Shown here in pieces: positions 7,603-52,335 of a DNA stretch of 64,000 bases; positions within the stretch are counted from its first letter, which is position 1, and every line of letters begins with the position of its first letter. A program made the position numbers and the translations under genes. This DNA comes from Candidatus Amesbacteria bacterium (lineage in GTDB: Bacteria; Patescibacteriota; Microgenomatia; CAZETR01; Amesbacteraceae): positions 1,756-65,755 of the forward strand of contig CAVTQH010000003.1 in the NCBI GenBank assembly GCA_963736875.1, in the 5' to 3' direction. The notes beneath the pieces were generated by a model. It saw only the letters and a list, made by a program, of their open reading frames with translations, was not told the DNA's origin and did not search any database.

Positions 7603-7710
7603 TAAAATTTCCGGGGGCAGAACGAAGGGCAGAAGAAACTGAACTTAAGCAGAAGTTTAAGCCCAAAAGGGGAAATGTCAAGAGAAGGGGATGATAGTAG
7701 ATGCACCTCG

Positions 7711-7783
7711 GCAGGCATAAATCCGTGCTCACGCGCAACTGTCGGAGCATGTGCCTGATTGCGCGCGGATTTATTATCCTGCC
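7711..7783. repeat. Imperfect long inverted repeat (hairpin) in the divergent intergenic region between TasA-like paralog A and fic.
   Basis: gcaggcataaatccg-tgctca-cgcgcaa (7711-7738) pairs with ttgcgcgcggatttat-tat-cctgc (7759-7783) around a ~20-nt loop. gcataaat recurs at 7790-7797. Confidence 0.4.
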
Positions 7784-7902
7784 TGCGTTGCATAAATATC
7801 CATACGCATTACCCCTGCATGCACACTATTAATATGTTGCGTCGAAAAACTGTCAGTCCTGTACCTTCAAGATTAATGCTTCCACCTGCTCACTGGAGGC
7901 TC

Positions 7903-7976
7903 AAATGTTAAACCATTGACATATTTTAAGACAAATGTTAAAGTTTTGCTTAAAGTTAACATATCGAGGCTAATAT
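7903..7976 (+). promoter_or_regulatory. Putative fic promoter/operator: three aTGTTAAa / GTTAAC-type repeats flanking a TTGACA -35-like hexamer, and a GAGG RBS 8 nt before the ATG.
   Basis: aaatgttaaa at 7903-7912, ttgaca at 7915-7920, aaatgttaaag at 7933-7943, taaagttaacat at 7951-7962, gagg at 7966-7969, ATG at 7977. Confidence 0.35.
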
Positions 7977-9116
7977 ATGCTTACCGATAAGGATATCCGA
8001 GAGCTTAAAAGGAGGGGAACACCCTCTTATTTACATCTGTTTCCGCCCGATACGCAAGGGTTATTCACTGATAAAGTTGTAGGACTGATTGGTGAGGCAA
8101 ACAGAGCTGTTGGTAACTTGAATAGTTATGCAAGAATAATTCCTAATCCTGATTTACTGATATGGCCGTTATTGTTAAAAGAGTCGTTGGCAAGTTCCAA
8201 AATTGAGGGGACTCAAGCATCAGTAAAGGATATATTGAGAAAGGATGTTAACCTCGGAACATCTGCTAGGGACATTGATGTCCGAGAAGTAATTAACTAT
8301 CGAGAAGCGACAAAGCTTGGTCTGAGTCTTTTGAATAAACTACCACTATCCGAGAGGTTAATTAAAGGAGTACATGGAAGATTGATGGCGGGAATGGTTC
8401 GTGGAGCGGAAAAAAGGACAGGGGATTATAGGCAAGGTCAAAATGCTATTGGAACTGAGGGAATTTTGGATGAAATCAAGTATCTTCCGCCTCCAGCTTT
8501 GGAAGTCCCGCAATTAATGCAAAATCTCTTCACATTTATCAACAATGATACTTTGGTTTACGATAAGTTAGTTCGCTGTGCGTTTATCCACTATGAGTTT
8601 GAAGCAGTTCACCCGTTTGCGGATGGTAATGGAAGGGTGGGAAGGCTGTTAATTACTCTCTACCTTCTTAAGGAAAGAGTTCTAAGGTACCCTTTAATAT
8701 ATCCGAGTGCTTATTTTTTGCATTACAAGGAAAGGTATGCAGATTGTTTGTTGAAAATTACAACTCAGGGGGACTGGACCGGTTGGTTGACATACTTCCT
8801 ACAGGGGATAGTGGAGCAGGCCGGAAGATCAGAAAGATTAATTGAAGAGATCGACTCAATTTATCAGGGTGCGAAAGAGGCGGTAAGACAGAATATGCAA
8901 AGCGTCCACGCTGAAAAATTAGTTGAGTTGGTTTTTAGGCGACCAATAGTGCTTGCTCCTGAAGTGTCCAGAGAGTTGATGGTGAATCATCAAACAGCAA
9001 TATCTCTGCTTAGAAGATTGTCCCAATTGGGTGTTTTGACTTTTAATCCAAAAACTAAGAAAAACATTCCCTTTATTAATTCAAAATTGATAGATTTACT
9101 GGAGAATGCGAGATAG
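7977..9116 (+). CDS. fic: Fic family protein (AMPylase/adenylyltransferase) with an N-terminal inhibitory motif.
   Basis: Canonical Fic motif HPFADGNGRVGRLL. Upstream (S/T)xxxE(G/N)-type inhibitory helix SSKIEGT. Intact 379-aa ORF. Confidence 0.85.
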   Translation: MLTDKDIRELKRRGTPSYLHLFPPDTQGLFTDKVVGLIGEANRAVGNLNSYARIIPNPDLLIWPLLLKESLASSKIEGTQASVKDILRKDVNLGTSARDIDVREVINYREATKLGLSLLNKLPLSERLIKGVHGRLMAGMVRGAEKRTGDYRQGQNAIGTEGILDEIKYLPPPALEVPQLMQNLFTFINNDTLVYDKLVRCAFIHYEFEAVHPFADGNGRVGRLLITLYLLKERVLRYPLIYPSAYFLHYKERYADCLLKITTQGDWTGWLTYFLQGIVEQAGRSERLIEEIDSIYQGAKEAVRQNMQSVHAEKLVELVFRRPIVLAPEVSRELMVNHQTAISLLRRLSQLGVLTFNPKTKKNIPFINSKLIDLLENAR

Positions 9117-9258
9117 CTTTTTTTTGGAGGTAGATTACAAGTAAATTGGTATTTGATATGTGGATGACTGCGCGCGTCGTATGAGACTCCTCCATCTGCT
9201 CGTCTTAGAGTAACAACATGCACGCTATTTATAAATCTGGCTGCTGTAAAATGTATTA

Positions 9259-10023
9259 ATGAATGTGTTGCAGGCGGTAATAATGGCGGCGGTGGAGGGG
9301 GTGACGGAGTTTTTGCCGATTTCTTCGACCGGGCACCTGATTCTGACGGCGAAGCTGTTGGCTATTGCACAGACTGATTTTGTCAAAAGTTTTGAGATTG
9401 TGATCCAGCTGGGGGCGATAACGGCCGTATTAATAATGTATGCCAGAAAGGTGCTGGCAAAATTGGCTTTGGTAAAACCGATATTGATTGCCTTTGTGCC
9501 GACGGCTTTGTGGGGACTTATGGCTTACAAATTTATAAAAGGATATTTGTTGGGAAATACAGCTGTAACTGTTTGGGCGCTTCTTCTGGGAGGAATTTTT
9601 ATGATTTGGTATGAGAGAAAAATGCGTAATAAAGAAGGTAAACTGAAGATTGAAGATCTGGACTGTAAAAAATCGCTTCAGATAGGATTATTTCAGGCGA
9701 TATCGATGGTTCCGGGGGTATCCAGGGCGATGGCGACGATTTTCGGAGGGATGGGAGCGGGACTGTCCCGGGCGGAAGCGACGCAGTTCTCGTTCCTTCT
9801 GGCAATTCCGACAATGGCGGCGGCAACGGGACTGGATCTTTTCAAATCGGGATGGTCGTTTACCACAGATGAATGGGGGATGTTATTTACGGGATTTATC
9901 GGAGCGTTTGTTTCGGCCTTCGTGGTGGTGAAGTGGCTGGTGGGGTATGTGCAGAAGCACGATTTTGTCGCCTTCGGAATATACAGAATTGTTTTAGCTC
10001 TGATATTTTTGTTGATTATTTAA
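9259..10023 (+). CDS. uppP: Undecaprenyl-diphosphatase (BacA/UppP).
   Basis: N-terminal EGVTEFLPISSTGHLIL motif, multi-TM 254-aa protein, C-terminal GxGxSRxxxT-like region. Confidence 0.8.
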   Translation: MNVLQAVIMAAVEGVTEFLPISSTGHLILTAKLLAIAQTDFVKSFEIVIQLGAITAVLIMYARKVLAKLALVKPILIAFVPTALWGLMAYKFIKGYLLGNTAVTVWALLLGGIFMIWYERKMRNKEGKLKIEDLDCKKSLQIGLFQAISMVPGVSRAMATIFGGMGAGLSRAEATQFSFLLAIPTMAAATGLDLFKSGWSFTTDEWGMLFTGFIGAFVSAFVVVKWLVGYVQKHDFVAFGIYRIVLALIFLLII

Positions 10024-10046
10024 TTACCTGACGTAATTAGGGATTA

Positions 10047-10132
10047 AGCCATTCGGCATTCGCAAATGCGTTTCTCGACTACCTGGTCGTTGCCTGGATC
10101 CAGCTGCGATACTATTTGCTGGAATGCCTGCA
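10047..10132. repeat. ~86-bp intergenic repeat, copy 1. Its direct-repeat partner is at 14628-14729.
   Basis: gccattcggcattcgcaaatgcgtttctcgactacctggtcg/ttgcctggatccagctgcgatactatttgctggaatgcctgca matches 14628-14729 almost exactly, apart from a 16-bp insertion in copy 2. Confidence 0.8.
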
Positions 10133-10188
10133 TGTCTTGTCAATCTGAATATTCATAAATACGCTCGCGCTTCGAGGTAAAAAGGGGA

Positions 10189-10827
10189 TTAGCCGGGGAA
10201 GAGGGGTGCGGGAGTGGGGGTAATTGTCGGGGGGCGGGTGGGAGTTGTATAAGTGTTGGTGGGACGGGGGGTGATGGTGGAAGTGGGAATCGGAGACGGA
10301 GCAGGCAGGACGATGACCAGAGACGATCCGGTAGCTTGTTTGCGGCAGTAAGTGGCAACGGCAAAAATATCTCCCTGACCGGGATTTTGGGCAATGAAAG
10401 TAGCCAGATTACCGCCCGGGATGAGGTTACCTATTGAGGTGGTGGAGCTCATGCCCCATTCATAAGTGACACCTTTCCAGATCGGACGGCCTTCTTTGTC
10501 ATAAGCCAAAGCGGAAAGACCAACCGGGGGACTACCTACAGTGGTTTGGACTTGTCCGGGATGAATGCGGACAGAGACGGGTTTGACCCGGCAGCCTAAA
10601 ATGGAAAAAGCGGCCTCGCCGGAAAGCGACTGGCGTAAAAGGACCGCACCGGTGGCTATGGGGAGGAAAGCAGCAAGGATAAGCAGGGGGAGAAGAAGTT
10701 TAAAGCGGCTTTTGTGATGTTGGGGAGGATGGGAAATAAAGTGGGGGACTTCGGTAGCCGGAGTCTCCTGAATAATCGGAGGGTTTGCCGGGGGAGAAAA
10801 ATCGACAGGAAGGGAATCTTCAGCCAT
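10189..10827 (-). CDS. Hypothetical membrane-anchored protein: N-terminal TM helix, a middle beta-rich (Ig-like?) region and a Pro/Thr-rich C-terminal tail.
   Basis: 212-aa ORF with LLLPLLILAAFLPIATGAVLL hydrophobic segment and ..PSPIPTSTITPRPTNTYTTPTRPPTITPTP tail. No recognisable catalytic motif. Confidence 0.4.
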   Translation of the reverse strand: MAEDSLPVDFSPPANPPIIQETPATEVPHFISHPPQHHKSRFKLLLPLLILAAFLPIATGAVLLRQSLSGEAAFSILGCRVKPVSVRIHPGQVQTTVGSPPVGLSALAYDKEGRPIWKGVTYEWGMSSTTSIGNLIPGGNLATFIAQNPGQGDIFAVATYCRKQATGSSLVIVLPAPSPIPTSTITPRPTNTYTTPTRPPTITPTPAPLFPG

Positions 10828-10851
10828 AAAAACAGTATATCATTCTTATTC

Positions 10852-11025
10852 TTATTTTCCGATGGCGTCCCGAAACATCTGACCGATGAAACGGACAATT
10901 CCGAAAATACCAAACATAATCATCTGAACCAGGCGGCCGACATAGAAAGGGGCGCGTTTGGCTATCGCTGTATAGATTTTTTCATACCAGCGGGGCTGGT
11001 ATTCGGGAGAACCATATACGGCCAT
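10852..11025 (-). CDS. Small (57-aa) predicted membrane protein. It is not in the ORF track because it is under 60 aa.
   Basis: Manual translation gives MAVYGSPEYQPRWYEKIYTAIAKRAPFYVGRLVQMIMFGIFGIVRFIGQMFRDAIGK*, with a hydrophobic helix. It lies in a gap between annotated genes, antisense to the spurious + ORF 10714..11040. Confidence 0.3.
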   Translation of the reverse strand: MAVYGSPEYQPRWYEKIYTAIAKRAPFYVGRLVQMIMFGIFGIVRFIGQMFRDAIGK

Positions 11026-11048
11026 GGATTGATTATATAATAGAAGGG

Positions 11049-11603
11049 ATGAGAAAAACTGTAATCTGGATGGGGTTGGGGATACTGGCGGCGGCGGGGG
11101 TGTTTCTGACTATTGCCGATTACCGACAGTGGAAACACGCGGAACTGGACCGATACGGGCAGGGACCGGGTGATCTGCAAAAACCGGCGATGAAACTTAC
11201 CGAGATGTATCAGAGTAAGATTCCGGGGATCAGACTCCGGCTTCCCCAAGGGTGGAAAGTAAAAGAAGAGGCGGGGATGATAGATGTGGCGGGGATGATG
11301 ACGGTGACGATTTCCGCGTCGAACGAAAACCTGACGGATCTGGTGAATAAGGAGATAGTCAAAATGATTGCCGCGGGGGTGAAACTGACCTGGGAAAGGG
11401 AGTATACCAATACGGAAAAAATGGATATGACGGTAATCACCTGGAGTGAAGAACTACCCGGAGGGACGGCTGTCAGGCATCAGAAAGTGATGGGGAAGAT
11501 GAGAGACCGGCTGATGGATATGGTGGTCAGCGTGCCGGAGGAGAAGTGGGGGGAATATGAGAAGACTTTTTGGGAAATATACAGAAATGTCGAGATGATT
11601 TAA
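11049..11603 (+). CDS. Hypothetical protein with an N-terminal TM anchor and a PsbP-like/DUF-type extracytoplasmic domain.
   Basis: MRKTVIWMGLGILAAAGVFLTIADY.. then a soluble domain. Weak resemblance (RLRLPQGWKVKEE) to the repeat units of the secreted protein at 20382-21957. Confidence 0.4.
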   Translation: MRKTVIWMGLGILAAAGVFLTIADYRQWKHAELDRYGQGPGDLQKPAMKLTEMYQSKIPGIRLRLPQGWKVKEEAGMIDVAGMMTVTISASNENLTDLVNKEIVKMIAAGVKLTWEREYTNTEKMDMTVITWSEELPGGTAVRHQKVMGKMRDRLMDMVVSVPEEKWGEYEKTFWEIYRNVEMI

Positions 11604-11658
11604 ATATAAGCAGTGCATTATCATTGCACTCATTAAAGGATGTGTTTAAACTGGAAGT

Positions 11659-12306
11659 GTGATAGTAGTTAACTTTAAAACTTACAAAGAGACGACGGGG
11701 TACAGGGCGGTTAATCTGGCCAGGATCTGCAAGCGGGTGATGGAGGATACCGGGATAAGAATTATTGCGGTACCGCAGATAGCGGATCTGAGAAATTGCG
11801 TGGAGACCGGAGCAGAGTGCTGGGTGCAGCATATAGACCCTGTGGAACAGGGGAAGAACACGGGGTGGACTACGGTAGAGGAAGTGGAAGAAGCGGGAGC
11901 TTTGGGAACGCTTCTGAACCACTCGGAACATAAACTTACTTGGGAGACTTTGACCAAAACCATGTCGCTTATTGCCGGAATGGCGTTTCAGGCGTGTATT
12001 TGTGCGGCGGATCCGGCTGAAGCGGTGAAAGCTTCCGAACTGAAACCCAACTATATTGCCTATGAGCCTCCGGAACTGGTGGGAAGCACCGACAAATCGG
12101 TATCTTCGGAAAAGCCGGAAATAATCGAAGAGGTGGTGAAGGCGGTAACTTATCCGGTCCTGGTGGGGGCGGGAATACACAGTATTGAGGATGTAAGGAC
12201 GGCAGTACGGCTTGGAGCCAAGGGAATATTAGTCGCGACGGATGTGGTGCTGGCGGAGGGGCAGGAGAAGGAATTGAGGATTCTTGCCGAAGGATTTAAA
12301 TCCTAA
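11659..12306 (+). CDS. tpiA: Triosephosphate isomerase, short archaeal/CPR type.
   Basis: 215-aa protein. NFKTYKE N-terminus, LLNHSEHKL (catalytic His/Glu region), YEPPELVGS and LVGAGI segments typical of archaeal-type TIM. Confidence 0.75.
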   Translation: MIVVNFKTYKETTGYRAVNLARICKRVMEDTGIRIIAVPQIADLRNCVETGAECWVQHIDPVEQGKNTGWTTVEEVEEAGALGTLLNHSEHKLTWETLTKTMSLIAGMAFQACICAADPAEAVKASELKPNYIAYEPPELVGSTDKSVSSEKPEIIEEVVKAVTYPVLVGAGIHSIEDVRTAVRLGAKGILVATDVVLAEGQEKELRILAEGFKS

Positions 12307-12346
12307 TCGTTTGGTTTTTTTGATATACTTAAGGCGGTATAAGAAA

Positions 12347-12808
12347 ATGATTTATATTGCCGCCGACCACCGGGGATTTGAGCTTAAGGCCAGAATAAAT
12401 GACTGGCTGAAGGGTCGCGGATATGAATTTGAGGATCTGGGGGCTTATGAATATAAACAGGAAGATGATTTTGTAGATTATGCGATTGACGTAGCCCAGC
12501 GGGTAGCTTTGGATCCGGATAAAAACCGGGGAATTCTAGTCTGTAAAAGCGGGGTGGGGATGAATATTGCGGCGGATAAAGTAAGGGGTATCAGGTGCGG
12601 GTTGGGTTTTGCTCCGGACCAGGTGCATTCTGCCAGAAAAGACGACAATATAAATGTACTGGCACTGGCTGCGGATAATACCGATGAGATTCAGGCCTGG
12701 GAATTGGTGGAGAAATTCCTGGAAACGGAGTTTGTGAAATCGGAGAATTATTTGCGAAGAATTGAGAAAATATCCCGGTATGAAAGGGAACTTGCCCACG
12801 GTAAGTGA
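12347..12808 (+). CDS. rpiB: Ribose-5-phosphate isomerase B (RpiB/LacAB family).
   Basis: MIYIAADHRGFELK.., GILVCKSGVGMNIAADKV.. are hallmark RpiB motifs. AAGGCGG RBS 10 nt upstream of ATG 12347. Confidence 0.85.
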   Translation: MIYIAADHRGFELKARINDWLKGRGYEFEDLGAYEYKQEDDFVDYAIDVAQRVALDPDKNRGILVCKSGVGMNIAADKVRGIRCGLGFAPDQVHSARKDDNINVLALAADNTDEIQAWELVEKFLETEFVKSENYLRRIEKISRYERELAHGK

Positions 12809-13709
12809 AGCTGACGTAGCCGAGAAACGGGTACTGGTACGGGTGGATCTGGATATGCCCAACGGGCACAATCCCAGAATAAGGGCGACGGAGGAAATAA
12901 TCAGCTGGCTTTTGGAGAAAAAAGCCGCGTCAATCAAGGCTATCGGACACAAGGGGGATTATCTGGTTATCCATGATCTGAGGCAAAAATTTCCCAGTGT
13001 GGAATGGAGTGACAGACTGCGGGATGACGCCAGGGAAAAGGAAAACAACACAAACTATGCCCAGGAACTGGCGGGGGACTGCGAGGTGTATATAAATGAA
13101 GCGTTTGCGGTATCACACCGGGTGCATACCTCGATAGTGGCACTGCCCAAAATTGTTAGAGAGAGGGGCGGGAAAGTGTTTACGGGATTTCGGTTTGCGA
13201 AAGAAATTGCCAGCCTGGACCAGGTATGGACCCACCCGGGATGGAAAGTACTGGTGATCGGGGGGGCAAAAGCTGCGGATAAAGCGGAGTTGGCAATAAA
13301 GCTGGCTCCCAGACTGGACCGGGTGTTGGTAGGGGGACTGCTGCCCCAGGTGATGGAGGGAGCAACGGCAAATATTTATCCGGGAATATTAAGAGATGAC
13401 GAAAAAGATCTGACGGATGAAACAATCGCCGATTTTTGTAAACAGATCAGCGCAGCACGGATAATAATTTTGTCCGGGCCGATGGGCAGGTTTGAAGAGC
13501 CGGGATCGGAAAAGGGGACAAAAGAGATATTTACGGCAATTGCCGGATCCCTGGCTTATAAAGTGGCCGGCGGGGGAAATACCGAAGACGCGCTGGCAAA
13601 ATTCGGCCTCATTGAAAAGTTTGACTGGCTTTCCGTCGGCGGGGCGGCAATGCTTGAATATTTGGCAACCGGAACCTTACCGGCTATACAGGCTATAAAC
13701 CCGGTATGA
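12780..13709 (+). CDS. pgk: Phosphoglycerate kinase, unusually short (~310 aa); copy 1 of a tandem pair.
   Basis: KRVLVRVDLDMPNG (PGK N-term RVDFNVP-like), AFAVSHRVHTS (hinge AHRAH-like), KVLVIGGAKAADK, KVAGGGNTEDAL, SVGGAAMLEYLATGTLPAIQAI (C-terminal PGK signature). Confidence 0.75.
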   Translation: MKGNLPTVSEADVAEKRVLVRVDLDMPNGHNPRIRATEEIISWLLEKKAASIKAIGHKGDYLVIHDLRQKFPSVEWSDRLRDDAREKENNTNYAQELAGDCEVYINEAFAVSHRVHTSIVALPKIVRERGGKVFTGFRFAKEIASLDQVWTHPGWKVLVIGGAKAADKAELAIKLAPRLDRVLVGGLLPQVMEGATANIYPGILRDDEKDLTDETIADFCKQISAARIIILSGPMGRFEEPGSEKGTKEIFTAIAGSLAYKVAGGGNTEDALAKFGLIEKFDWLSVGGAAMLEYLATGTLPAIQAINPV

Positions 13710-14768
13710 AAGGAAATTTGCCCGGTTTGGAGAATATTAATGTTGAGGGTAAAAAAGTATTGGTGGTGGGGGCTTTTGATGTGGACGATGCGGATAATCC
13801 CCGGGCGGATTCGATCAGGGCGGTAGTGGAGTATTTAAGGACCAGGCAGGCTTTGAAAATAAGAGTGATCGGGCATTGTGAAACCGATTTTGATTTGGCA
13901 GGTCTGTTAAGACAAGAATTTGCGGGAGTGGAGTTTGACAGCACGAGTGAGAAAAGACCCCCGGGAGAAAGAAAACAATGAGGAGTATGCAAGACAGCTG
14001 GCTTCCGATTTTGAGGTTTATGTGAATGAGGATTTTGCCACTTCACACCGGAAGTACACTTCGTTTGCGGCACTGCCGCAATTTATGAAAAGCCAGGGGA
14101 GGGAAGTGTGTTTGGGAATGAGATTTGAGAAGGAGCTGGAAATGTTATCGACCGTGTGGAACCATGAGGGCAGAAGAATATTGGTAATCGGAGGAGTAAA
14201 AATTGATGACAAACAGAAGTTTGCGGAGGACATGAAGGAGAAATTTGCGGTGGTTTTGAAAGGCGGATTGTTGCCGGGGGCAAGATTAAGACCGGACGGA
14301 ATGGATATTACCGATGAAGCTATTGATGAATATGTAAAAGAGATTCAGAAGGCGGAAGTGATATTGGCGGCGGGAGTGATGGGAAAGTATGAAGATGCCG
14401 ATTGTGCCAAAGGAACCAAAGCGATTTTGGAGGCAATTGCAGATAATCCCCATGCTTATAAAGTGGCCGGGGGCGGGGATATTGAAATGGCGATTTCGAC
14501 TTACAAATTGACGGAGAAATTTAACTGGATTTCTGTCGGCGGGGGAGCAATGCTTGAGTATCTGGCGCGGGAACTGCCGGGGTTGGAAGCGGTGTCGGGT
14601 AGGGTTGCGGATTTAACACGAAGTGTAGGCCGTTCGGAGTTCGCAAATGCGTTTCTCGACTACCTGGTCACCCCGCCTGGCGGCGGGTTGCCTGGATCCA
14701 GCTGCGATACTATTTGCTGTAACTCCTGCACGGCCGCTATGGTGCAAAGGTTTGATCGCCACTATTAA
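13706..14768 (+). pseudogene. pgk: Phosphoglycerate kinase, tandem paralog copy 2. Frameshifted near 13930-13980 and lacking a stop codon before the downstream repeat.
   Basis: ORF 13706..13981 (MKGNLPGLENINVEGKKVLVV..) and ORF 13920..14768 (..REKENNEEYARQLASDFEVYVNEDFATSHRKYTS..KVAGGGDIEMAI..SVGGGAMLEYLARELPGL) align residue-for-residue with copy 1. The junction needs a 1-2 nt indel. The reading frame runs through the 14628-14729 repeat with no PGK-like stop. Confidence 0.65.
14628..14729. repeat. ~100-bp repeat, copy 2 (direct repeat of 10047-10132), with a 16-bp internal insertion.
   Basis: gccgttcggagttcgcaaatgcgtttctcgactacctggtca[ccccgcctggcggcggg]ttgcctggatccagctgcgatactatttgctgtaactcctgca. 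Confidence 0.8.
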
Positions 14769-15829
14769 GGTGGCGCATTTGGATTGGAGGATTGGCAGGC
14801 TGGCTTTGCGGATCGGACTTTTGAAGCACCACAATGAGATGGAATTTGTGGCGATCAATACTTCCGGATCGATGGAAACGGATGGCTGGTGCCACCTACT
14901 AAATCAGGATACGACTTACAGGAAGTTTGAGATTGAAGTAAAAGCCGTGAATGTAAAAAAAGCCAAAGAAGCGACTGATGAGGATCCTTTAATCGGATAT
15001 CTGGAAGTTACCGAGTATGGGACTTAAAATTCCCGTGTTGGCCCAGAAAGATCCGGAAAAACTGCCGTGGAGCAAATACGGGGTGGAAGTGGTGATGGAA
15101 TGCACGGGGAAATTTACGGATGAAGCAGGGGCTTTGAAGCATGCCAAAGCAGGAGCTAAAAAAGTGATTATTTCAGCTCCGGCTAAGGGAGGAAATGTAG
15201 GAACATTTGTGATGGGAGTAAACGAAGTGGACGGGGGACACCAGGTGATTTCCAATGCCAGCTGTACCACGAACTGCATTACTCCGGTGGCGGCGGTAAT
15301 CCACAAAAAATTCGGGATAGTAAAAGCCATGATGACGACAGTTCATGCTTATACAGATGACCAGGTGGTGCAGGACGGATCACACAAGGATCTGCGGCGG
15401 GCAAGAGCCGCCGCCGCCAATATTGTGCCGACTTCCACGGGAGCCGCGATTGCCACGACCGAAGTGATACCGGAATTGAAATCGATGTTTGACGGGATTG
15501 CATTAAGAGTGCCGGTTTTGACCGGATCAATTACGGATTTTGTGTTTGTAACATCCCGTAAAGTTACCCGGGAGGAAGTGAACGAGGCATTAAAAGAGGC
15601 GACACAAAGCCCGATATACAGGGGTATTTTGGGGATGTCGGGAGTGGACGGGGTGCCGGAACATCTGGTTTCCTCCGATATTATCGGAAGTAACTACAGC
15701 GCTGTCGTAGACCCCGAATTTACCCAGGTAATTGACGGGGATCTGGTGAAAGTACTGGCCTGGTATGATAACGAATGGGGGTATACGAACCGGCTGGTGG
15801 AGCAGGCGATAAGATTTGGATTAGAATAA
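14752..15829 (+). CDS. gap: Glyceraldehyde-3-phosphate dehydrogenase, type I, with an apparent +1 frameshift near 15015-15025.
   Basis: N-part (ORF 14647..15027) reads KVAHLDWRIGRLALR..EFVAINTS..(GFGRIGR-like). C-part (ORF 15017..15829) has SNASCTTNCITPVAAVIHKKFGIVKAMMTTVHAYT, the catalytic Cys peptide. Start is a probable TTG/GTG near 14752-14770. Confidence 0.75.
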
Positions 15830-15833
15830 GGTG

Positions 15834-16422
15834 ATGGAAATAGTGCCGGCGATATTAACGGGTAACAAACGGGAATTGGAGGAGTGGCTCCAAAGACTTA
15901 AAGAGATTAGAAAATTTGAACGGGTGCAGATTGATTTTGTAGACGGGGAATATGCGAATAATTTAACGATCAGACCAGCGGATGTGGATCTGCTGCCGTA
16001 TTTACCGATGCTTTTTGATGCGCATCTGATGGTGACTGAAAAAAATATTTCCGTCTGGAGCGGGGAAGCTGTCAAAGTCGGATTTGACCGGGTAATTGCC
16101 CAGATGGAAAGTATATCAGATCCGGAAAATTTTAAAGGACTGGCAATGGATGTGCACTCTCCGACGGAAGCGATTGAACCATACCTGCCGAAACTTGAAG
16201 CGGTGATGGTGATGGCAGTGGAGCCGGGTTTTTCAGGTCAGGAATTTGATGAACCTGGCGATTGAACATTTGAAGAAACTGACAGAGTACAGGAAAAAAT
16301 ACGATCTGAAGTACAAAATATGTATTGACGGGGGAGTAGATGATATTCACCTGCCGTTTTTGGAAAAATGGGGGGCAGATGAGGTGGCGGTGGGAGTGAG
16401 GCGGGTGTTAGAATGGCTGTAA
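15834..16422 (+). CDS. rpe: Ribulose-phosphate 3-epimerase, with an apparent frameshift near 16255.
   Basis: ORF 15831..16265 reads IVPAILTGNK..HLMV..AVEPGFSGQEF. The next frame continues ..ICIDGGVDDIHLPFLEKWGADEVAVG (Rpe C-terminal IxVDGG motif). Confidence 0.7.
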
Positions 16423-17048
16423 TGCCCAACGGAAATATCGAAGAGAGACTGATCAGGACGGTAACTTGTTTAGGATTTGCGGACGCCCATTCCCAGGATA
16501 ATCTGTACCGGGAAGCATATGCCGTGGGTAAAGCCCTGGCCAGTGCCGGTTATATCATAGCCAACGGCGGCGGTCCGGGAGTGATGAAAGCGACGACTGA
16601 AGGGGCGAAATCGGCGGGAGGACATGTGGTGGGGGTGACATTTTATCCCAAAGACGTATCCAATTTTGAAGGCCGGGATAAGACAAACAGGATTGATGAG
16701 GAAATAAAAACGGAACATTATCTGGAAAGGACTCTGAAACTTCTGGAAGTGGGGCAGGCATATGTGATATTTAAAGGCGGTACCGGGACTATTTCGGAAT
16801 TCGGGATGGCCTGGGGACTGGCCCGGCTGTATTTCGGACACCATAAACCGCTGATTCTGTACGGCAAGTTTTGGGAAAACATCATGGCCGCTTTTATGTC
16901 CAACATGCGGATGCGGCCGGAGGAATTTCAGGTATACCGGGTGGTGGACAGTCCGGAAGAAGTAGTTAAATCACTGGAGCTGTTTGAAGTGATGCTTAGG
17001 CATAACCAGCATGCGGTCAGTCCGCAGGAAAAACCGTTCCAGCTATGA
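16413..17048 (+). CDS. LOG family protein (cytokinin riboside 5'-monophosphate phosphoribohydrolase-like; TIGR00730 Rossmann-fold nucleotide-binding).
   Basis: ANGGGPGVMKATTEGA and KGGTGTISE motifs (GGGxGxM..PGGxGTxxE). Confidence 0.7.
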   Translation: MAVMPNGNIEERLIRTVTCLGFADAHSQDNLYREAYAVGKALASAGYIIANGGGPGVMKATTEGAKSAGGHVVGVTFYPKDVSNFEGRDKTNRIDEEIKTEHYLERTLKLLEVGQAYVIFKGGTGTISEFGMAWGLARLYFGHHKPLILYGKFWENIMAAFMSNMRMRPEEFQVYRVVDSPEEVVKSLELFEVMLRHNQHAVSPQEKPFQL

Positions 17049-17900
17049 GCCTTAATGAAGAACAGATTCAAAAAATTGAGCTGAAAGCGGATGAGATCAG
17101 GAAAGACATTATTAAAATGCTTTTAGCAGCCGGATCCGGACATGCGGCCGGGGCATTGGGGATGGCGGATGTGTTTGCCACGCTTTATTTTTCGGGAATT
17201 CTGAACTGGGATCCGGATAATCCATGGAAAGAAGACCGGGACAGGGTAATACTTTCAAACGGGCATATTTGTCCGGTCTGGTATGCGACCTTTGGCTCAT
17301 ACAGGGGCATTTTCACACCAGGAGCTGGATACTTTGCGAAAATTGGGCAGTAAACTTCAGGGACACCCGCATTACAAAGACCTGCCGGGAATTGAAAACA
17401 GCGGCGGGCCTTTGGGTCAGGGAATATCACAGGCGGTGGGACAGGCGCTGGCGGCAAGAATAGATATGGCCAGATACAGAGTATATTGTCTGATGTCTGA
17501 TGCGGAGCTGCAGGAAGGACAGACATGGGAAGCGCTCCAGTTTGCCGGGAATAACCGGCTGCGCCATTTAACTGTTTTAATTGACAGAAATAATATTCAG
17601 ATTGACGGATATACGGAACAGGTAATGCCGGTGGAACCGGTTTTGAATAAACTGATGGCTTTTAACTGGTTTGTGCTGGAAGTGAACGGAAATCATGTCA
17701 GGGAAATTTATGAGGGACTGGAGCGGGCAAAAGCCATCAGGGAGCGGCCGACGGCAATTATTGCCCACACCATACCCGGTAAGGGAGTGGAATTTATGGA
17801 AGGAAATTATAAGTGGCACGGAATTCCGCCGAACAAAGAGCAGGCGGTTGAGGCTTTGAAACAATTGAGATCTTTATGGGGAAAAATAAGTATGGAGTGA
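17045..17900 (+). CDS. tkt: Transketolase N-terminal subunit (split transketolase). Apparent +1 frameshift at ~17292-17296 (an extra T in a T-run).
   Basis: ORF 17045..17353 has ..AGSGHAAGALGMADVFATLYF..ILSNGHICPVWYAT. ORF 17283..17900 continues ..LAHTGAFSHQELDTLRKLGSKLQGHPH..GPLGQGIS... Deleting one T from gacctttggctc restores WYATLAHTGAF. Confidence 0.8.
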
Positions 17901-17901
17901 A

Positions 17902-19410
17902 TCAGATCCGGGATTTGTAGTATTGGATGACATTATCGATGGAGAGAATTTTACCGGAACAGCCGGTTTTTAAAGTGTAGATGGTGTTGTAGTCATCGTT
18001 TTCAGAATTGGTGACAGTAGCCCACGGAGTATAGAAGCGGTGCAAGCCGCCCTGTTCCTGGTGGCGGGCGACATAAAAGACGGGGACGGAAGCGGTCAGG
18101 CAATCATATTCATCCAGAGGGATATCCACGACATGATCGTCCAGGTAACCTAATATGGTATCCGGGCGGCGGCGCAGGTAATTGAAAACAGCCTGTTCGG
18201 GATTGCCGGCGTTGGCGGCAACACAGACGTAAACCGGTGAATCCGGAAGGTGATTCTGCAGATATTTTACGGTTGCCATAGCCTGGTAGCCGGTGTCGCG
18301 GCCTTGAAAGTAGCCGATTATTTGGGAATGGCGGGTAACCAGGGAAATGAGGCGAAAATAGGCAGGGGGATGGATGATCAGAGAGATGGTGAGAACAAGT
18401 GAGGGAATAATCACCAGAGGGAGAAGTTTTATATGTCCGGAAAGCCAGCGGGCGCAAAAGATAAGAAGCGGCGGAAGGTAGGGAGCAAGATATCGGGGTG
18501 TGGGATTTCGAACCAGAAGAGTGGTAATAATTAAAGTCAGAATGGTCCATAATGCAACCACCGGTATTTTTTTGCGGCTGAATATTAAAACGGCAAAAAT
18601 TAAGGGATTAAAATACCAAAAAATAATTTCCATATGAGCCAACAGGTTTCTGATCCAGGTTAATACCGGGAATCCCAGAAGTTCTCTCACAGTAAAGGTA
18701 AAATCCGAGACGTTATGAATGGTTATCCAGAAGGTTTCCTGGAATAATACCGGGGACATAACCAATAAGATACAGGTAAGTGTGAGAAGGGTATGGGTGA
18801 GCAGGAGATAGCGGGTGCGGGAATTTTTCCAGGCATTGTAGAAGATAATCAGGAAGGCGGCGGGAATAAAAATCAATCCATTGGCTTTGACCAGGCAACC
18901 CAGTCCCAAAGTTATTCCCAGCCAAAGCGACCGGTATACTCCCGGTTTTTCCAGATACCGGCAGAGAAAATAACAGGACCAGACCCCTGCGGCCATAAGA
19001 GCACTTTCCATAAGTGCCTGGCGGTCAAAAAAGATAAAAATCGGAATCACAATATAAAGAAGGCAGGAAATGACTGCAGTCCGGAAATCAACCATGGATT
19101 TGGCTAAACGGTACAGGCCGAAAAAAGCCAGCCAGCCGGTCAGAACACCGACCAGACGTCCTGCTAAAAGGGGATCAGAAAACAGAAACTGGAATATACC
19201 AAAAAACCACATGATAAGGGGCATTTTGTAGAAGGACAAAGGGAAGAAAAACAGACCGGGAATGTTGACAGTGCGCCAGCCCCAGTCGATAAATGTCGAT
19301 TCATCAATGAAGACGGGCAGGAGAGTGAGATTCGGAAGCCGGGTGATAAAAAAAAGCAGGGAGAGAGAGACAAAGGGATGAAGGCGGACGAATTTTTTCA
19401 GAGTATGCAC
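17902..19410 (-). CDS. Family 39/83 glycosyltransferase (ArnT/PMT-like dolichyl- or undecaprenyl-phosphate-sugar:protein/lipid transferase), multi-TM.
   Basis: TM-rich ~500-aa protein: ..[54 protein letters not shown]... The ORF-track extension to 19728 covers low-complexity sequence antisense to tktC. The likely start is the GTG at 19410 ([13 protein letters not shown]..). Confidence 0.6.
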
Positions 19411-19429
19411 AGTGTTATTATATTTGATA

Positions 19430-20398
19430 ATGGATGAAAAGAATTTACTGGCGACCAGGGACGGGTGGGGGGATGCGCTGGTGGAATTGGGGAAGACGGA
19501 TAAACGGGTGGTGGTATTGACTGCCGATCTGAAAGAATCGACCAGAGTGGAAAGATTTGCCGGGGTTTTTCCCGAAAGGTTTGTGGAGTGCGGGGTGGCG
19601 GAGCAGAATATGATGGGGATTGCGGCGGGGCTTGGCGGCTTCCGGAAAAATCCCGTTTGTGTCCTCATATGCGGTATTTTCCCCGGGAAGAAACTGGGAT
19701 CAGTTACGGGTGTCGGTGTGTTATTCAAATTTACCGGTTGTTAGTCGGAGGGCATCATACCGGGGTGTCGGTGGGACCGGACGGGGCGACACACCAGGGG
19801 CTGGAAGATATTGCCATTACCCGGGTGCTGCCGAATATGACGGTGGTGGTACCGGCAGATTATGAAGCAGACGAGGAAAGCGGTGAAAGCGGCGGTTGAT
19901 GCGGGCGGACCGGTATATATCAGACTGACAAAGGAAAAGACGCCGGTCGATGACAAAAAAAGAAAGCAGGTTTGAAATCGGGAAAGCGGAAGTAGATTTG
20001 GGATATCGCAAGGTTCGGACAACCGCCGCAGGCGGCGATTATCGGGTGCGGACCGATTTTATATGAATGCCTCTTGGCAGCAAAAGAGCTGGAAAGCGAG
20101 GGGATAGGGGTAAAAGTGGTAAATAATCACACGGTAAAGCCAATGGATGAAGAAACAATTATCGGTAGTGGCCCGTGAATGCGGAGCAGTGGTGACGGCA
20201 GAGGATCATCAGATTGCGGGGGGAATGGGATCAGCTGTCGCCGAATTTCTGATTTCCAATTACCCGATTCCTATGGAATTTGTGGGGGTAAAGAACAGTT
20301 TCGGAGAATCGGGAACACCGGATGAACTGGCGGAAAAGTACGGATTGAAAGCCAAGGACATTGTCCTAGCAGTGAAGAAGGTTATGGGTAGGAAATAG
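19430..20398 (+). CDS. tkt: Transketolase C-terminal subunit, fragmented by at least 2 apparent frameshifts.
   Basis: [68 protein letters not shown] (ORF 19412..19744); ..[38 protein letters not shown] (ORF 19588..19899); C-term ..[37 protein letters not shown] (ORF 20147..20398). Confidence 0.75.
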
Positions 20399-49983: not shown

Positions 49984-52335
49984 ATGATTAACGGGGTGGA
50001 TCCGGTGGCGGTAATGTGGGAGGTGGCGGTGATAGCGCTTTTAATTCTTTCGCCGTTTTTTTTACTGGGAGGACTGTTTTATTTCTGGATTCTGTGGTAC
50101 CGACATAAAGACCGGGAGGAGCATAGCTTACGGATGGTGTGTTTGCAGGTGGCCGTACCCCGGGATAACGAAATAAAGATTGATGCCATGGAGCAGATTT
50201 TTGGTAGTCTGTATTCCATAAAAAAAGGTAAAAAAGGTCCATTCGGCCTGCTGACATTTTTACAGGTGCAGCCGCATGTGAGTTTTGAGATGGTAGCCAG
50301 GAAGGAAGATATCAGATTTTATATTGTGGTTCCGGAAAAACTGCGGGATTTGGTGGAAAAGTCAATTCACGGCGGATTCCCCGGGGCGGAAATTCTGATG
50401 GTGGACGAACCGACGATTTTTTCCGAGGAGGGAAAAGTGGAATTTTCCTGGATGGTCCTTAGAAATGCCGAATACAATCCGATCCAGACATATAAAAATC
50501 TGGCGACGGATCCGATGGCCGGTCTGACTTCGGCACTGGCAAAAATGAACGAAGACGAGGGGGCGCATATCCAGATTTTGATATCACCGGCTGATAACAA
50601 ATGGAAGGGAAAAGGCAGGGCGTGGATCGGCAGGACGAAGAAGAATGAAGCCAATCCGGAAAAAGCCAGCTACAAAGTGGATCCGAAAGTGATGGAAGCG
50701 GTGGAAAGTAAAGTATCCAAGTCCGGATTTTGGGCCACAATCAGGGTGGTGGTGTCATCTAAAGACAAGGATATGGCAAAAATGCACCTTCAAAACATCA
50801 AAGCTGCATTTGAACAGTACAGCGGGGATTTGAACGGTTTTAAAGGAAAGAAAGTCAGACTGAAAGCCCTGTTTATGCAGGATTTTATTTACCGGTACCA
50901 GCCGGTAATCCGGTGGGGTGACTGGACGATACTTAATTCAGAAGAATTGGCTACCATTTACCATTTTCCCAATAAGACGGTGGAAACCCCGCATATTCAT
51001 TGGCTGTCGGCCAAAAGAGCCCCGGCACCGCAGGGAATTGCCACATCGGGACTGTATATCGGCAAATCGGTATTTAGAGGGATAACCCGGCCGGTATATA
51101 TATCCGATGTGGACAGGGAGAGACATATGTATATTATCGGAAGGACCGGAACCGGCAAGACGGAAATGATGAAAACAATGATATTGCAGGATCTGCGCGC
51201 CGGTAAGGGGCTGTGTGTGATTGACCCGCATGATCTGGCGGAGGATTTACTCGGATATATACCTCCGGAAAGGGCGGAAGATGTGATATTTTTTGATCCT
51301 TCCGATGAAGAATGGCCGATGGGATTAAACCTTTTGGAAACCCGCACCGAAGGCGAGCGGCACATGGCGACCAATGCGGTGATCGGCATGATGTACAAAC
51401 TGTATGATCCGCATAAGACGGGGATTATCGGCCCCCGGTTTGAGCATGCAATCAGAAACGCCATGCTGACGGTAATGGATGCGATTGACGGCGGAACATT
51501 TATTGAAGTAGTGCAGGCTTTACAGCGGCCGGAGTTTGTGCAGGAAATGCTTCCCCGGGTGAAAGATCCGCTGGTGCGAAGATACTGGACGGACCAGATT
51601 GCCCAGACATCGGATTTTCATAAATCAGAGGTGCTGGATTATATTGTGTCCAAGTTCGGGCGGTTTGTGACCAATAAAACGATCAGAAATATTATCGGGC
51701 AGAATGTCAGCGCTTTTGATTTCCGGAAAGTAATGGATGAGGGAAAGATTCTGATTATTAATCTGGCCAAGGGAAAATTGGGGGAAGAGAACAGCAACTT
51801 TTTGGGACTGGTACTGGTTCCCCGACTGGTGGCGGCCGCTATGAGCCGGGCGGATATTCCGGAGGCACAGAGAAGGCCGTTTTATCTGTATGTGGATGAG
51901 TTCCAGAATTTTGCCACTCCGGATTTTGCCACTATCTTGTCCGAAGCGAGGAAATACAAACTGAATCTGATAGTGGCCAACCAGTTTACTTCGCAAATGG
52001 AGGATGAAGTGAAAAATGCGGTATTCGGGAACGTGGGAACTCTGATTTCCTTCAGAACCGGGGTGGCTGATGCCAATTTCCTGCAGCATGAATTTACGCC
52101 GACTTTTAACGAAGCGGATCTGTTAAATATCGAAAGATTCCATGTGTATATCAAAACAATTGTAAATAATGAGCCGGTAGTACCGTTTTCGATGGATGTA
52201 ACGAAGGACCTGGCAACTGAAAGAGCCATGCGCAACCAGAAACTGGCGGATGCGATTAAACAATTGTCGCGCTTAAAGTACGGACGGGATGTGCGTCTGA
52301 TTGAACACGAGATTTCCGACAGGGCGAAACTGTAG
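49984..52335 (+). CDS. Membrane-anchored P-loop ATPase of the TraD/TrwB/VirD4 coupling-protein (DUF87 / type-IV secretion DNA-binding) type.
   Basis: Two N-terminal TM helices; Walker A YIIGRTGTGKTEM; Walker B FYLYVDEFQNF; ..IVANQ.. sensor-like. 783 aa. Confidence 0.55.
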   Translation: MINGVDPVAVMWEVAVIALLILSPFFLLGGLFYFWILWYRHKDREEHSLRMVCLQVAVPRDNEIKIDAMEQIFGSLYSIKKGKKGPFGLLTFLQVQPHVSFEMVARKEDIRFYIVVPEKLRDLVEKSIHGGFPGAEILMVDEPTIFSEEGKVEFSWMVLRNAEYNPIQTYKNLATDPMAGLTSALAKMNEDEGAHIQILISPADNKWKGKGRAWIGRTKKNEANPEKASYKVDPKVMEAVESKVSKSGFWATIRVVVSSKDKDMAKMHLQNIKAAFEQYSGDLNGFKGKKVRLKALFMQDFIYRYQPVIRWGDWTILNSEELATIYHFPNKTVETPHIHWLSAKRAPAPQGIATSGLYIGKSVFRGITRPVYISDVDRERHMYIIGRTGTGKTEMMKTMILQDLRAGKGLCVIDPHDLAEDLLGYIPPERAEDVIFFDPSDEEWPMGLNLLETRTEGERHMATNAVIGMMYKLYDPHKTGIIGPRFEHAIRNAMLTVMDAIDGGTFIEVVQALQRPEFVQEMLPRVKDPLVRRYWTDQIAQTSDFHKSEVLDYIVSKFGRFVTNKTIRNIIGQNVSAFDFRKVMDEGKILIINLAKGKLGEENSNFLGLVLVPRLVAAAMSRADIPEAQRRPFYLYVDEFQNFATPDFATILSEARKYKLNLIVANQFTSQMEDEVKNAVFGNVGTLISFRTGVADANFLQHEFTPTFNEADLLNIERFHVYIKTIVNNEPVVPFSMDVTKDLATERAMRNQKLADAIKQLSRLKYGRDVRLIEHEISDRAKL

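What the first reader, a model, noticed from the sequence alone, without database searches (positions are those of the whole stretch)
10047..14729. ~86-bp near-identical direct repeats bracket a 4.5-kb block (two hypothetical genes, tpiA, rpiB and a tandem pgk pair); copy 2 carries a 16-bp palindromic insertion
The sequences at 10047-10132 and 14628-14729 are near-identical: ...ttcgcaaatgcgtttctcgactacctggtc...ttgcctggatccagctgcgatactatttgctg...cctgca. Copy 1 is intergenic, downstream of uppP and of the minus-strand gene ending at 10189. Copy 2 lies in the read-through tail of the second pgk copy, which has no PGK-like stop before it. The repeat contains a ccagc-N13-gctgg stem. Possible explanations are a translocated or duplicated segment flanked by recombination sites, a conserved terminator or attenuator element, or a small ncRNA present in two copies. 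Copy 2 has an inserted roughly palindromic ccccgcctggcggcggg.
Basis: seen in the sequence. Interest (0 to 1): 0.6.

Follow-up and report, generated by a model that had tools for sequence, protein, structure and literature searches.

The report
Small mobile hairpin repeat family
The two repeats are real, but they are copies of a 94-115-base hairpin-forming repeat (a third, diverged copy lies 2.3 kb upstream) that entered separate gaps between genes of an uncultivated Microgenomates-type bacterium. They are not the ends of a moved 4.5-kb block, and this is a new example of a familiar kind of small mobile DNA.

Summary
Copy c1 (10046-10139) and copy c2 (14627-14737) share an identical 63-nt core. 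All 12 substitutions lie in the outer 31 nt, and c2 has 17 extra bases at the tip.

The whole element is one long imperfect hairpin. A covariance model found a third, diverged copy, c4 (7701-7794, same strand). A DNA scan found a fourth copy, c3, in an unrelated metagenome contig. Across the four copies, 16 base pairs change on both sides and stay paired.

The 17-nt "insertion" is an apical stem-loop. c3 has a homologous one, so c1 most likely lost it.

Close relatives (82-91% nt identity) keep the same gene order from uppP to gap but lack the element at all three sites. The 4.5-kb block is therefore ancestral, not translocated, and the copies are independent gains. c4 sits at the edge of an inserted fic gene, and c2 replaces a small ORF.

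There is no Rfam match, no U-tract, no attC boxes, and no transposase in the window.

Best reading (0.55): a MITE/REPIN-like non-autonomous palindromic element, new as a family but of a known kind. The main rival is a structured RNA element.

The pgk2 "read-through tail" is a consequence of the insertion, in a stretch that also carries many single-base insertions.

The parts
10046..10139 (+). Copy c1 of the hairpin repeat (94 nt, no apical stem). It lies in the convergent spacer between uppP (stop at 10023) and the minus-strand hyp212 gene (stop at 10189).
   Evidence: 101 bits; 109 bits. The spacer is 165 nt here against 46 nt in relative L024, and the genes overlap in L025. The 5' part is reproduced in the independent assembly L023.
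14627..14737 (+). Copy c2 of the hairpin repeat (111 nt). It lies between the PGK-homologous end of pgk2 (about 14594) and the gap start (GTG at 14770).
   Evidence: -48 kcal/mol; 129 bits. The closest relative, L021 (91% nt), has an 86-codon ORF here and no element.
14670..14686 (+). The 17 nt that c2 has and c1 lacks (ACCCCGCCTGGCGGCGG). They form the apical stem-loop of the element (CCCGCC / loop UGGC / GGCGGG).
   Evidence: c3 in L001 has a homologous 21-22-nt apical stem (CCTGCCTG/CAGGCAGG) with a compensatory C-G to U-A change.
7701..7794 (+). Copy c4, a diverged member of the same family (94 nt). It keeps the basal motif U-CGGC...GCC-U-G-C and the AAAU/AUUU stem, but its interior differs. 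It lies between two divergently transcribed genes, 16 nt inside the left edge of the fic insertion.
   Evidence: 34 bits, E = 5e-6 with a model built without it; 63 bits; -45 kcal/mol, z = -3.7. Homology to L024 ends at 7684. Promoter-like sites at 7681-7654 (-) and 7916-7944 (+).
10059..10121 (+). The 63-nt core. It is identical in c1 and c2 (where it is split by the apical stem: 14640-14669 plus 14687-14719) and differs by 1 nt in c3. It contains the palindromes CTGGATCCAG and CAGCTG.
7685..9237 (+). A segment present here but replaced by 129 unrelated nt in relative L024. It holds c4 at its left edge, a promoter-like site and the fic gene (7977-9116).
   Evidence: (Fic_N, Fic, SoFic-like_C).
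14591..14744 (+). A segment with no counterpart in L021. It holds 36 nt, c2, and about 7 nt, and it replaces the relative's orf86. It removed the last codons and the stop of pgk2.
14595..14768 (+). The non-PGK read-through tail of the pgk2 reading frame, which runs across c2. It is a by-product of the insertion, not a coding feature.
   Evidence: The Pfam PGK match ends at residue 216 of 282. The alignment to P0068 ends at residue 225. Both other frames have stops at 14600 and 14614. pgk2 also carries a window-specific 1-nt insertion at 13946.

Best explanation
The repeats belong to a small family of non-coding, 94-115-nt imperfect palindromes. These behave as non-autonomous mobile DNA of the MITE / REPIN / ERIC / Correia kind.

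Shown:
- There are at least four copies: three in this window, all on the same strand within 7 kb, and one in an unrelated metagenome contig.
- Each folds into one long hairpin.
- Differences between copies are overwhelmingly compensatory.
- A basal motif (U-CGGC ... GCC-U-G-C, with unpaired bases on fixed sides) is shared by all four copies.
- A 63-nt core is shared by three copies.
- An apical stem-loop is optional.
- All three window copies are missing from the orthologous positions of the nearest available relatives, which otherwise keep the gene order.

Inferred:
- Copies are made from a folded single-stranded intermediate. An enzyme encoded elsewhere in the genome recognises that intermediate, as for REP/REPIN with RAYT or for IS200/IS605 ends.
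- Under this model, selection for the ability to be copied keeps the core sequence and the pairing constant while the stem sequences drift.
- After insertion the element is passive DNA. Where it is co-transcribed (c1, c2, c3) it would add a stable RNA hairpin to the message, and it can truncate or extend neighbouring reading frames, as at pgk2.
For: 1. The repeat is real and non-random.
2. The hairpin shows covariation: 96.5% of pair cells are standard pairs, against 28-40% when the partners are slid. Sixteen pairs change on both sides, and 0 of 500 shuffles reach this. With only c1-c3, 7 pairs already change on both sides.
3. A diverged copy, c4, was found by a model that did not contain it. 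It is a full-length match with E = 5e-6.
4. Copy c3 has completely unrelated flanks.
5. Relatives show empty sites. c1 is absent in L024 and L025. c2 is absent in L021, L003 and L022. c4 is absent in L024.
6. The copies sit in intergenic contexts of every kind: divergent (c4), convergent (c1) and tandem (c2, c3).
7. c1 is closer to c3, from another sample, than to c2, which lies 4.5 kb away. So c1 and c2 are not a local duplication.
8. The independent Logan contig L023 stops at 10078 and starts at 7757. These are exactly the points where a 31-mer stops or starts containing a copy-specific outer-stem base (G10048, G7787). This is as expected if the sample holds further copies or alleles with the same core but other outer stems. 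The k=31 value is from my own knowledge of Logan.
9. [quoted passage not shown]
Against: - No transposase, RAYT or reverse transcriptase is found in the 64-kb window.
- No target-site duplication or clean junction could be resolved, because the relatives are too diverged in the spacers.
- Only four copies are known.
- Exact-word scans with three of its words (18-20 nt) found no copy in 185,579 species genomes and only one in 241 million metagenome records. The family is therefore rare or narrowly distributed.
- In c1-c3 the most conserved part is the interior rather than the ends. This is the reverse of the REPIN layout.
- All known copies are co-oriented with the flanking plus-strand genes, and wobble pairs occur only when the plus strand is read (9 G.U cells, 0 A.C cells). 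This would also fit an RNA-level function.
Confidence: 0.55

Rival explanations
1. A structured RNA element read from the plus strand. It would be either a cis-acting 3'-UTR or intercistronic hairpin (a stabiliser or a processing site for a double-strand-specific RNase) or a small RNA gene. Its 63-nt core would be a protein-binding or catalytic module. Its spread would be by recombination or horizontal transfer rather than by transposition.
For: Covariation is strong. The core is invariant while the stems drift (P = 3e-7). All four copies point the same way as the neighbouring plus-strand genes. c1, c2 and c3 lie 22-75 nt downstream of a plus-strand coding region. G.U pairs appear only on the plus-strand reading. 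A variable apical stem is typical of functional RNAs.
Against: There is no Rfam match, even at E up to 10, around c1. No conserved promoter lies upstream and no U-tract lies downstream. c4 lies between two divergent promoter-like sites and is probably not transcribed. All three copies are absent from the orthologous sites of relatives whose flanking genes are conserved, so the neighbouring genes do not need it. The interior helices have no covariation support, because the core does not vary.
Confidence: 0.2
2. A folded-DNA recombination site that marks the edges of exchangeable gene segments. It would be analogous in principle to integron attC sites, which are hairpins with extrahelical bases and a variable terminal structure, and it would be used by a site-specific recombinase encoded elsewhere.
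For: In the 13 kb that could be compared with relatives, three of the four differences in gene content have a copy at or within 36 nt of the breakpoint. These are c4 at the edge of the fic insertion, c1, and c2 replacing orf86. The hairpin has unpaired bases on fixed sides and an optional apical stem. All copies share one orientation.
Against: There are no R''/R' boxes (RYYYAAC / GTTRRRY) at the ends. No integrase lies next to the copies; the only tyrosine recombinase is Xer-sized (291 aa) and 39 kb away. c1 brought no gene with it, and c2 replaced a gene with nothing. The fourth difference, the missing 640-aa gene at 11600-11655, has no copy.
Confidence: 0.08
3. One reading: two direct repeats left by translocation, duplication or integration of the 4.5-kb block between them.
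For: Two direct repeats bracket 4.5 kb.
Against: The block and its neighbours are in the same order in relatives without the repeats. A third copy lies outside the block. c1 resembles c3, from another sample, more than it resembles c2. The outer stems of c1 and c2 differ at 12 positions, which is unlike att-type duplications.
Confidence: 0.03
4. An assembly artefact: a mis-join or a collapsed repeat that created one of the copies.
For: The stretch from 13946 to 20163 carries many window-specific single-base insertions, so local sequence quality is questionable. c2 itself is not covered by an independent assembly.
Against: c1 and c4 are reproduced in context by Logan contig L023 at 99.96% identity. 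A near-identical copy exists in an unrelated JGI contig. Both flanks of c2 are homologous to one contiguous relative contig, L021.
Confidence: 0.02

Closest known systems
REPINs (REP doublets forming hairpins) mobilised by RAYT / TnpA-REP
   Same: Both are about 100 nt, non-coding and extragenic, and form a long imperfect hairpin. Both have conserved blocks plus a less conserved region that keeps its pairing through compensatory changes (PMC3116915). REP recognition depends on a folded single strand with conserved bulges (PMC8266576). Here too the unpaired bases are on fixed sides.
   Different: REPs are 20-50-nt palindromes preceded by a conserved GTAG. Here GTAG precedes only 2 of 4 copies. 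The most conserved part of c1-c3 is the interior, not the two ends. No RAYT is in the window, and the copy number is unknown and apparently low. The host is a Microgenomates-type CPR bacterium, whereas the REPIN examples are from Pseudomonas, E. coli and Nostoc.
Correia repeat-enclosed elements (Neisseria) and ERIC/IRU elements (enterobacteria)
   Same: All are small palindromic intergenic repeats with an inverted repeat and a conserved core. They are co-transcribed with neighbouring genes. Size variants arise from internal insertions or deletions. Related genomes differ in presence or absence. CREE RNA hairpins bind RNase III and are either cut or protected by it (PMC2649163 abstract). The ERIC properties are from my own knowledge.
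   Different: No sequence similarity was found. No TA duplication or IHF site is evident. No promoter creation was shown. Those families have tens to hundreds of copies per genome.
Generic MITEs, and the Rickettsia palindromic elements that insert into coding regions
   Same: All are short, non-coding and palindromic, and are polymorphic between relatives. Insertion at the 3' end of pgk2 rewrote the C-terminus of the reading frame, as the Rickettsia elements do (my own knowledge).
   Different: No target-site duplication and no parent insertion sequence have been identified.
Integron attC sites
   Same: Both are imperfect palindromes of 57-141 nt that act as folded single strands with extrahelical bases and a variable terminal structure (my own knowledge). 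Both sit at the edges of variable gene content.
   Different: The defining R''/R' boxes are absent. There is no IntI, no attI and no cassette array.

Membership tests
MITE (miniature inverted-repeat transposable element, generic) | Short and non-coding | tested here: met
   The copies are 94-115 nt. No reading frame is conserved: the minus-strand MQAFQQ... frame is broken by the 17-nt piece in c2 and is unrelated in c4.
MITE (miniature inverted-repeat transposable element, generic) | Terminal inverted repeats | tested here: met
   The whole element is an imperfect palindrome, and the outer 7 + 7 bp pair in all four copies. However, the terminal sequences differ between copies, which is unusual.
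MITE (miniature inverted-repeat transposable element, generic) | Target-site duplication flanking each copy | tested here: inconclusive
   No shared direct repeat is seen at the four pairs of flanks. Alignment to the empty sites is ambiguous because the spacers have diverged.
MITE (miniature inverted-repeat transposable element, generic) | Presence/absence differences at orthologous sites in related genomes | tested here: met
   c1 is absent in L024 and L025. c2 is absent in L021, L003 and L022. c4 is absent in L024.
MITE (miniature inverted-repeat transposable element, generic) | Many dispersed copies, and a parent element with the same ends | not testable with these tools
   Only 64 kb of a 193,912-bp contig is available, and the rest could not be fetched. 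There are three copies in the window and none in the other 57 kb. No transposase is in the window.
REP / REPIN with RAYT | A palindrome preceded by a conserved GTAG tetranucleotide | tested here: not met
   GTAG lies directly 5' of c2 and c4 but not of c1 (TTAA) or c3 (GGTG). The definition is from PMC8266576.
REP / REPIN with RAYT | Two inverted REPs with conserved ends and a variable, still pairing spacer | tested here: inconclusive
   The hairpin and the compensatory changes are present. A basal motif is conserved in all four copies. In c1-c3, however, the interior is the invariant part.
REP / REPIN with RAYT | A RAYT (Y1 HUH transposase) gene in the genome | not testable with these tools
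   None is in the window.
Integron attC | R'' (RYYYAAC) and R' (GTTRRRY) boxes at the two ends | tested here: not met
   The ends of the four copies were read directly and no such boxes are present on either strand.
Integron attC | An adjacent intI, attI and an array of cassettes | tested here: not met
   The only tyrosine recombinase (53438-54313, 291 aa, Xer-like domains) is 39 kb away. The genes between the copies are a conserved sugar-phosphate operon.
Intrinsic (rho-independent) terminator | A G+C-rich stem followed directly by a run of U | tested here: not met
   No T-run follows any copy. The scan reports no terminator-like site at the whole-element stems, only a sub-stem inside c4.
Any described RNA family (Rfam 15) | A covariance-model match | tested here: not met
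   Only two tRNAs pass gathering scores in the whole window. Around c1 there are only noise hits at E of about 0.1 to unrelated families.
Diversity-generating retroelement TR/VR pair | Differences restricted to adenines of the template repeat, with a reverse transcriptase nearby | tested here: not met
   The 12 differences involve all four bases and are paired across the hairpin. No reverse transcriptase is in the window.

The most novel reading that the evidence does not exclude
The element is not ordinary selfish DNA. It would be a folded-DNA site used for exchanging gene segments in CPR genomes, a functional analogue of attC without its sequence boxes. Alternatively, it would be a mobile hairpin whose outer stem is rebuilt at each insertion, which would explain constant cores with ever-different but always complementary ends. 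Either way it would be a driver of the gene-content differences seen at 3 of the 4 breakpoints in this region.
Probability: 0.1. Interest if true: 0.7.

Novelty: new member of a known kind. Interest (0 to 1): 0.35.

Why it matters
My one literature search pairing CPR with MITEs found nothing relevant. A hairpin repeat sits at three of four gene-content differences between close relatives. It may therefore offer a handle on how these small genomes gain and lose genes. It also gives annotators a reason for odd reading-frame tails such as the one on pgk2. The pattern of an invariant core with drifting but always paired outer stems is a clean, testable case of selection acting on a folded nucleic acid. 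If the responsible enzyme were found, it would identify a single-strand transposition or recombination system in this lineage.

Tried and rejected
- Rfam gave nothing, either at gathering thresholds on the whole window or at permissive thresholds around c1.
- tRNA/tmRNA scanning found only two ordinary tRNAs, far away.
- Small-protein reading: five of six frames are open across the core, but no frame is kept across copies.
- A six-frame peptide trick against 5.8 billion proteins, meant to catch mis-called ORFs over other copies, found nothing.
- Exact-word scans:
  - Two genome-contig scans gave only chance 18-21-mers.
  - The metagenome scan gave one true hit, L001.
  - Four viral scans gave one chance hit and nothing else.
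  - Plasmid and phage BLAST gave nothing.
- A second covariance model that includes c4 found no further copies in the window or in 34 kb of relatives' contigs.
- A search for other long hairpins in the window found no second family.
- Target-site duplications and exact junctions could not be resolved.
- The idea that the outer stem is copied from the target (L024 has GGTTGC..CAT near the c4 site) remains unsupported.
- Fetching more of the source genome failed for five of the seven window proteins looked up; the other two, UppP and Fic, returned only the 2.3-kb contig L023.
- Rejected readings: DGR, attC, terminator, att-flanked island and mis-assembly (see the membership tests and the rival explanations).

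Full report
**1. The observation**

The two sequences are there. The repeat finder gives two co-linear blocks with offsets of 4581 and 4598 nt. The 30-mer at 10059 and the 33-mer at 10089 each recur exactly once, at 14640 and 14687, with zero matches in shuffles. A short-word BLAST finds no other close copy in the window.

With flanks, copy c1 is 10046-10139 (94 nt) and copy c2 is 14627-14737 (111 nt). c2 has 17 extra bases (ACCCCGCCTGGCGGCGG, 14670-14686) between the two blocks. Apart from these, the copies differ at 12 of 94 positions. All 12 lie outside the 63-nt core (P = 3e-7).

Pfam confirms the surrounding genes:
- UppP/BacA (9259-10023)
- two proteins without a family match (10189-10827 minus strand, 11049-11603)
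- TIM and RpiB
- a 315-aa PGK
- a second PGK split by a frameshift
- a GAPDH that is also split

**2. Anatomy**

The whole element, not just the ccagc-N13-gctgg piece, folds into one long imperfect hairpin on either strand. The differences between c1 and c2 are paired across it: GGCAU/AUGCC against GGAGU/ACUCC, and AGCCAU/AUGUCU against GGCCGU/ACGGCC.

A 20-mer scan of JGI metagenomes found one more copy, c3 (L001 642-756), on a 1-kb contig whose flanks are unrelated to the window. c3 has the same core with one change, a U.G pair becoming C-G. Its outer stem is different again (GACCAU/AUGGUC). At the position of c2's 17 nt it has a 21-22-nt apical stem. That stem is homologous to c2's and differs by a compensatory C-G to U-A change. 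The "insertion in copy 2" is therefore an apical stem-loop of the element that c1 lacks, most likely through loss.

A covariance model built from c1-c3 then found a full-length match at 7701-7794 on the same strand (34 bits, E = 5e-6). This copy, c4, is 94 nt long like c1 and folds at -45 kcal/mol (z = -3.7). It shares with the others:
- the basal motif (an unpaired U, then CGGC, opposite GCC-U-G-C with the U and the C bulged)
- the AAAU/AUUU stem
- traces of the interior (UGCCUG.AU)

Most of its stem sequences differ. On the four sequences, 96.5% of pair cells are standard pairs, against 28-40% when the 3' partners are slid. Sixteen pairs change on both sides, and no shuffle reaches this.

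Two caveats apply. The alignment was fitted to the model. The interior helices of c1-c3 do not vary, so they are unsupported by covariation.

A second model that includes c4 finds nothing else in the window or in the relatives' contigs.

**3. What it is not**

- There is no Rfam family.
- No reading frame is conserved.
- No U-run follows any copy, and no conserved promoter precedes one.
- There are no attC end boxes.
- The differences are not adenine-specific.
- The window holds no reverse transcriptase, transposase or RAYT.
- The only recombinase is a 291-aa Xer-like protein at 53438-54313, 39 kb away.

**4. Context in relatives**

The window comes from a Microgenomates/Amesbacteria-like CPR bacterium. 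Its own PGK and UppP appear in the protein collection from a 193,912-bp NCBI/ENA contig.

Contigs from a relative at 82-88% nt identity (L002-L007 and L024, which overlap one another) give this order:
- X (minus strand) | uppP | hyp212 (minus strand) | hyp184 | a 640-aa gene (minus strand) | TIM | RpiB | PGK1 | orf150 | orf77 (minus strand) | GAPDH | RPE ...

The 4.5-kb block is therefore in its ancestral place.

In that relative:
- The uppP-hyp212 spacer is 46 nt, against 165 nt here. In L025 the two genes overlap. So c1 is absent.
- Homology stops at 7684 and resumes at 9238. Window 7685-9237, with c4 sixteen bases inside its left edge followed by fic, replaces 129 unrelated bases.

The closest relative is L021 (91% nt). 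It has the end of pgk1, then pgk2, an 86-codon ORF, and gap. The window has c2 in place of that ORF.

All three copies are therefore gains, or replacements, that occurred after these lineages split. Three of the four gene-content differences in the comparable 13 kb have a copy at the breakpoint. The fourth, the missing 640-aa gene at about 11600-11655, does not.

**5. Independent support, and a hint of more copies**

Logan contig L023, from run ERR12040022, equals window 7757-10078 at 99.96% identity. This confirms the 3' part of c4, fic, uppP and the 5' part of c1.

The contig ends at 10078 and begins at 7757. These are exactly the positions at which a 31-base word stops or starts containing a copy-specific outer-stem base (G10048 on one side, G7787 just after the conserved GCCUGC on the other). 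In a k=31 assembly graph (the k value is from my own knowledge of Logan), this is what further copies or alleles would produce, if they had the same core but a different outer stem. This is an inference, not a count.

**6. Mechanism**

The best-supported reading is a non-autonomous palindromic mobile element. This reading accounts for the following:
- the presence/absence pattern
- the occurrence in divergent, convergent and tandem spacers
- the copy in an unrelated contig
- the fact that c1 is nearer to c3 than to its neighbour c2
- the optional apical stem
- the compensatory evolution, which is described for REPINs (PMC3116915)

If only copies with an intact core and a paired stem can be copied, then an invariant core with drifting stems follows without any benefit to the host.

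Recognition as a folded single strand by a Y1-type enzyme is inferred by analogy (PMC8266576). It is not shown here.

The shared orientation of the three window copies, on the strand with positive GC skew throughout, is compatible with strand-biased single-strand transposition. It is equally compatible with selection for co-orientation with transcription.

**7. The main rival**

The main rival is an RNA-level element. The evidence for it:
- co-orientation with the flanking genes in 4 of 4 copies
- positions 22-75 nt downstream of coding regions for c1-c3
- wobble pairs only on the plus-strand reading (9 G.U cells against 0 A.C cells)
- the extreme conservation of the core

The evidence against it:
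- c4 lies between promoter-like sites that point away from it: 7681-7654 on the minus strand and 7916-7944 on the plus strand
- all copies are dispensable in relatives
- there are no transcription signals

A co-transcribed copy would still form a stable hairpin in the message. For Correia elements such hairpins bind RNase III and are either cut or protected by it (PMC2649163). An effect on neighbouring genes is therefore plausible but untested.

**8. The pgk2 tail**

Homology to the relative's pgk2 ends at 14590-14594. The relative's protein stops 8 codons after LPG. Here the frame runs on to 14768 across c2. The event that brought c2 removed the native stop.

pgk2 also has a window-specific one-base insertion at 13946, and gap has one at 15012. 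Nine more follow up to 20163. None is seen in coding sequence between 7432 and 13683. Either this stretch is poorly polished or it is decaying, and the tail should not be read as a coding feature.

**9. Verdict**

The bracketed-block interpretation is rejected. The element is a new family of a known kind, a small palindromic mobile repeat. It is rare in public data, and its enzyme and copy number are unknown. Interest is moderate at 0.35. The most novel reading still open is a recombination-site or stem-regenerating element, at about 10%.

Noticed in passing
window 13946-20163: The window carries about eleven single-base insertions relative to relatives L002 and L021. They fall at 13946, 15012, 16249, 17290, 19632, 19741, 19865, 19948, 19995 and 20163, among others, mostly outside homopolymers. 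They frameshift pgk2, gap, rpe, the transketolase N-part and other genes. None is seen in coding sequence between 7432 and 13683. This points to local assembly or polishing errors, or to a decaying operon.
   Followed up: partly
window 12762-13709 and 13706-14594; L021 1-1113: The two adjacent pgk genes are different lineages. PGK1 is about 45% identical to P0068, which is 90% identical to PGK2. PGK2 itself is 79% identical to P0047. The tandem pair also exists in relative L021, whereas the L003 lineage has only PGK1. PGKs of about 300 aa are the norm in this group.
   Followed up: partly
window 14764-14800: The start of gap is degenerate compared with L021 and L022. ATG GTA AAA GTG GCA has become ATT AAG GTG GCG. 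The NAD-binding motif INGFGRIGR reads HLDWRIGR, one residue shorter. Together with the frameshift at 15012, this suggests a damaged gene or poor sequence next to c2.
   Followed up: partly
window 7685-9237: The fic gene (Fic_N, Fic and SoFic-like C-terminal HTH domains) with its promoter-like site is an insertion relative to L024, which has 129 unrelated bases between the same flanking genes.
   Followed up: partly
window 11600-11658; L005 2-1921, L024 2985-3186: Relatives carry a 640-aa minus-strand gene between hyp184 and TIM that is missing here. No repeat copy lies at this junction, only a small terminator-like hairpin (11612-11630).
   Followed up: partly
L023 ends (window 7757 and 10078): The independent short-read contig breaks inside c4 and inside c1, exactly where a 31-mer loses or gains a copy-specific outer-stem base. 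This hints at further copies or alleles with the same core in that sample.
   Followed up: partly
window 49984-54968: A TraG/VirD4-like coupling protein (49984-52335) is followed by tRNA-Ile (53097-53168). Next come a 291-aa Xer-like tyrosine recombinase (53438-54313, minus strand) and tRNA-Met (54896-54968). This may be the edge of an integrated element.
   Followed up: no
window 24858-27713: A 951-aa reading frame joins ADP-forming acyl-CoA synthetase domains (CoA_binding, Succ_CoA_lig, ATP-grasp_5) to ferredoxin-reductase-type FAD and NAD domains. It lies directly upstream of pyruvate:ferredoxin oxidoreductase genes.
   Followed up: no
L022 239-732: In a more distant relative, a PhdYeFM/ParE toxin-antitoxin pair sits directly upstream of rpiB-pgk-gap, and pgk and gap are only 5 nt apart. 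The pgk-gap junction is thus a recurrently variable spot in this lineage.
   Followed up: no
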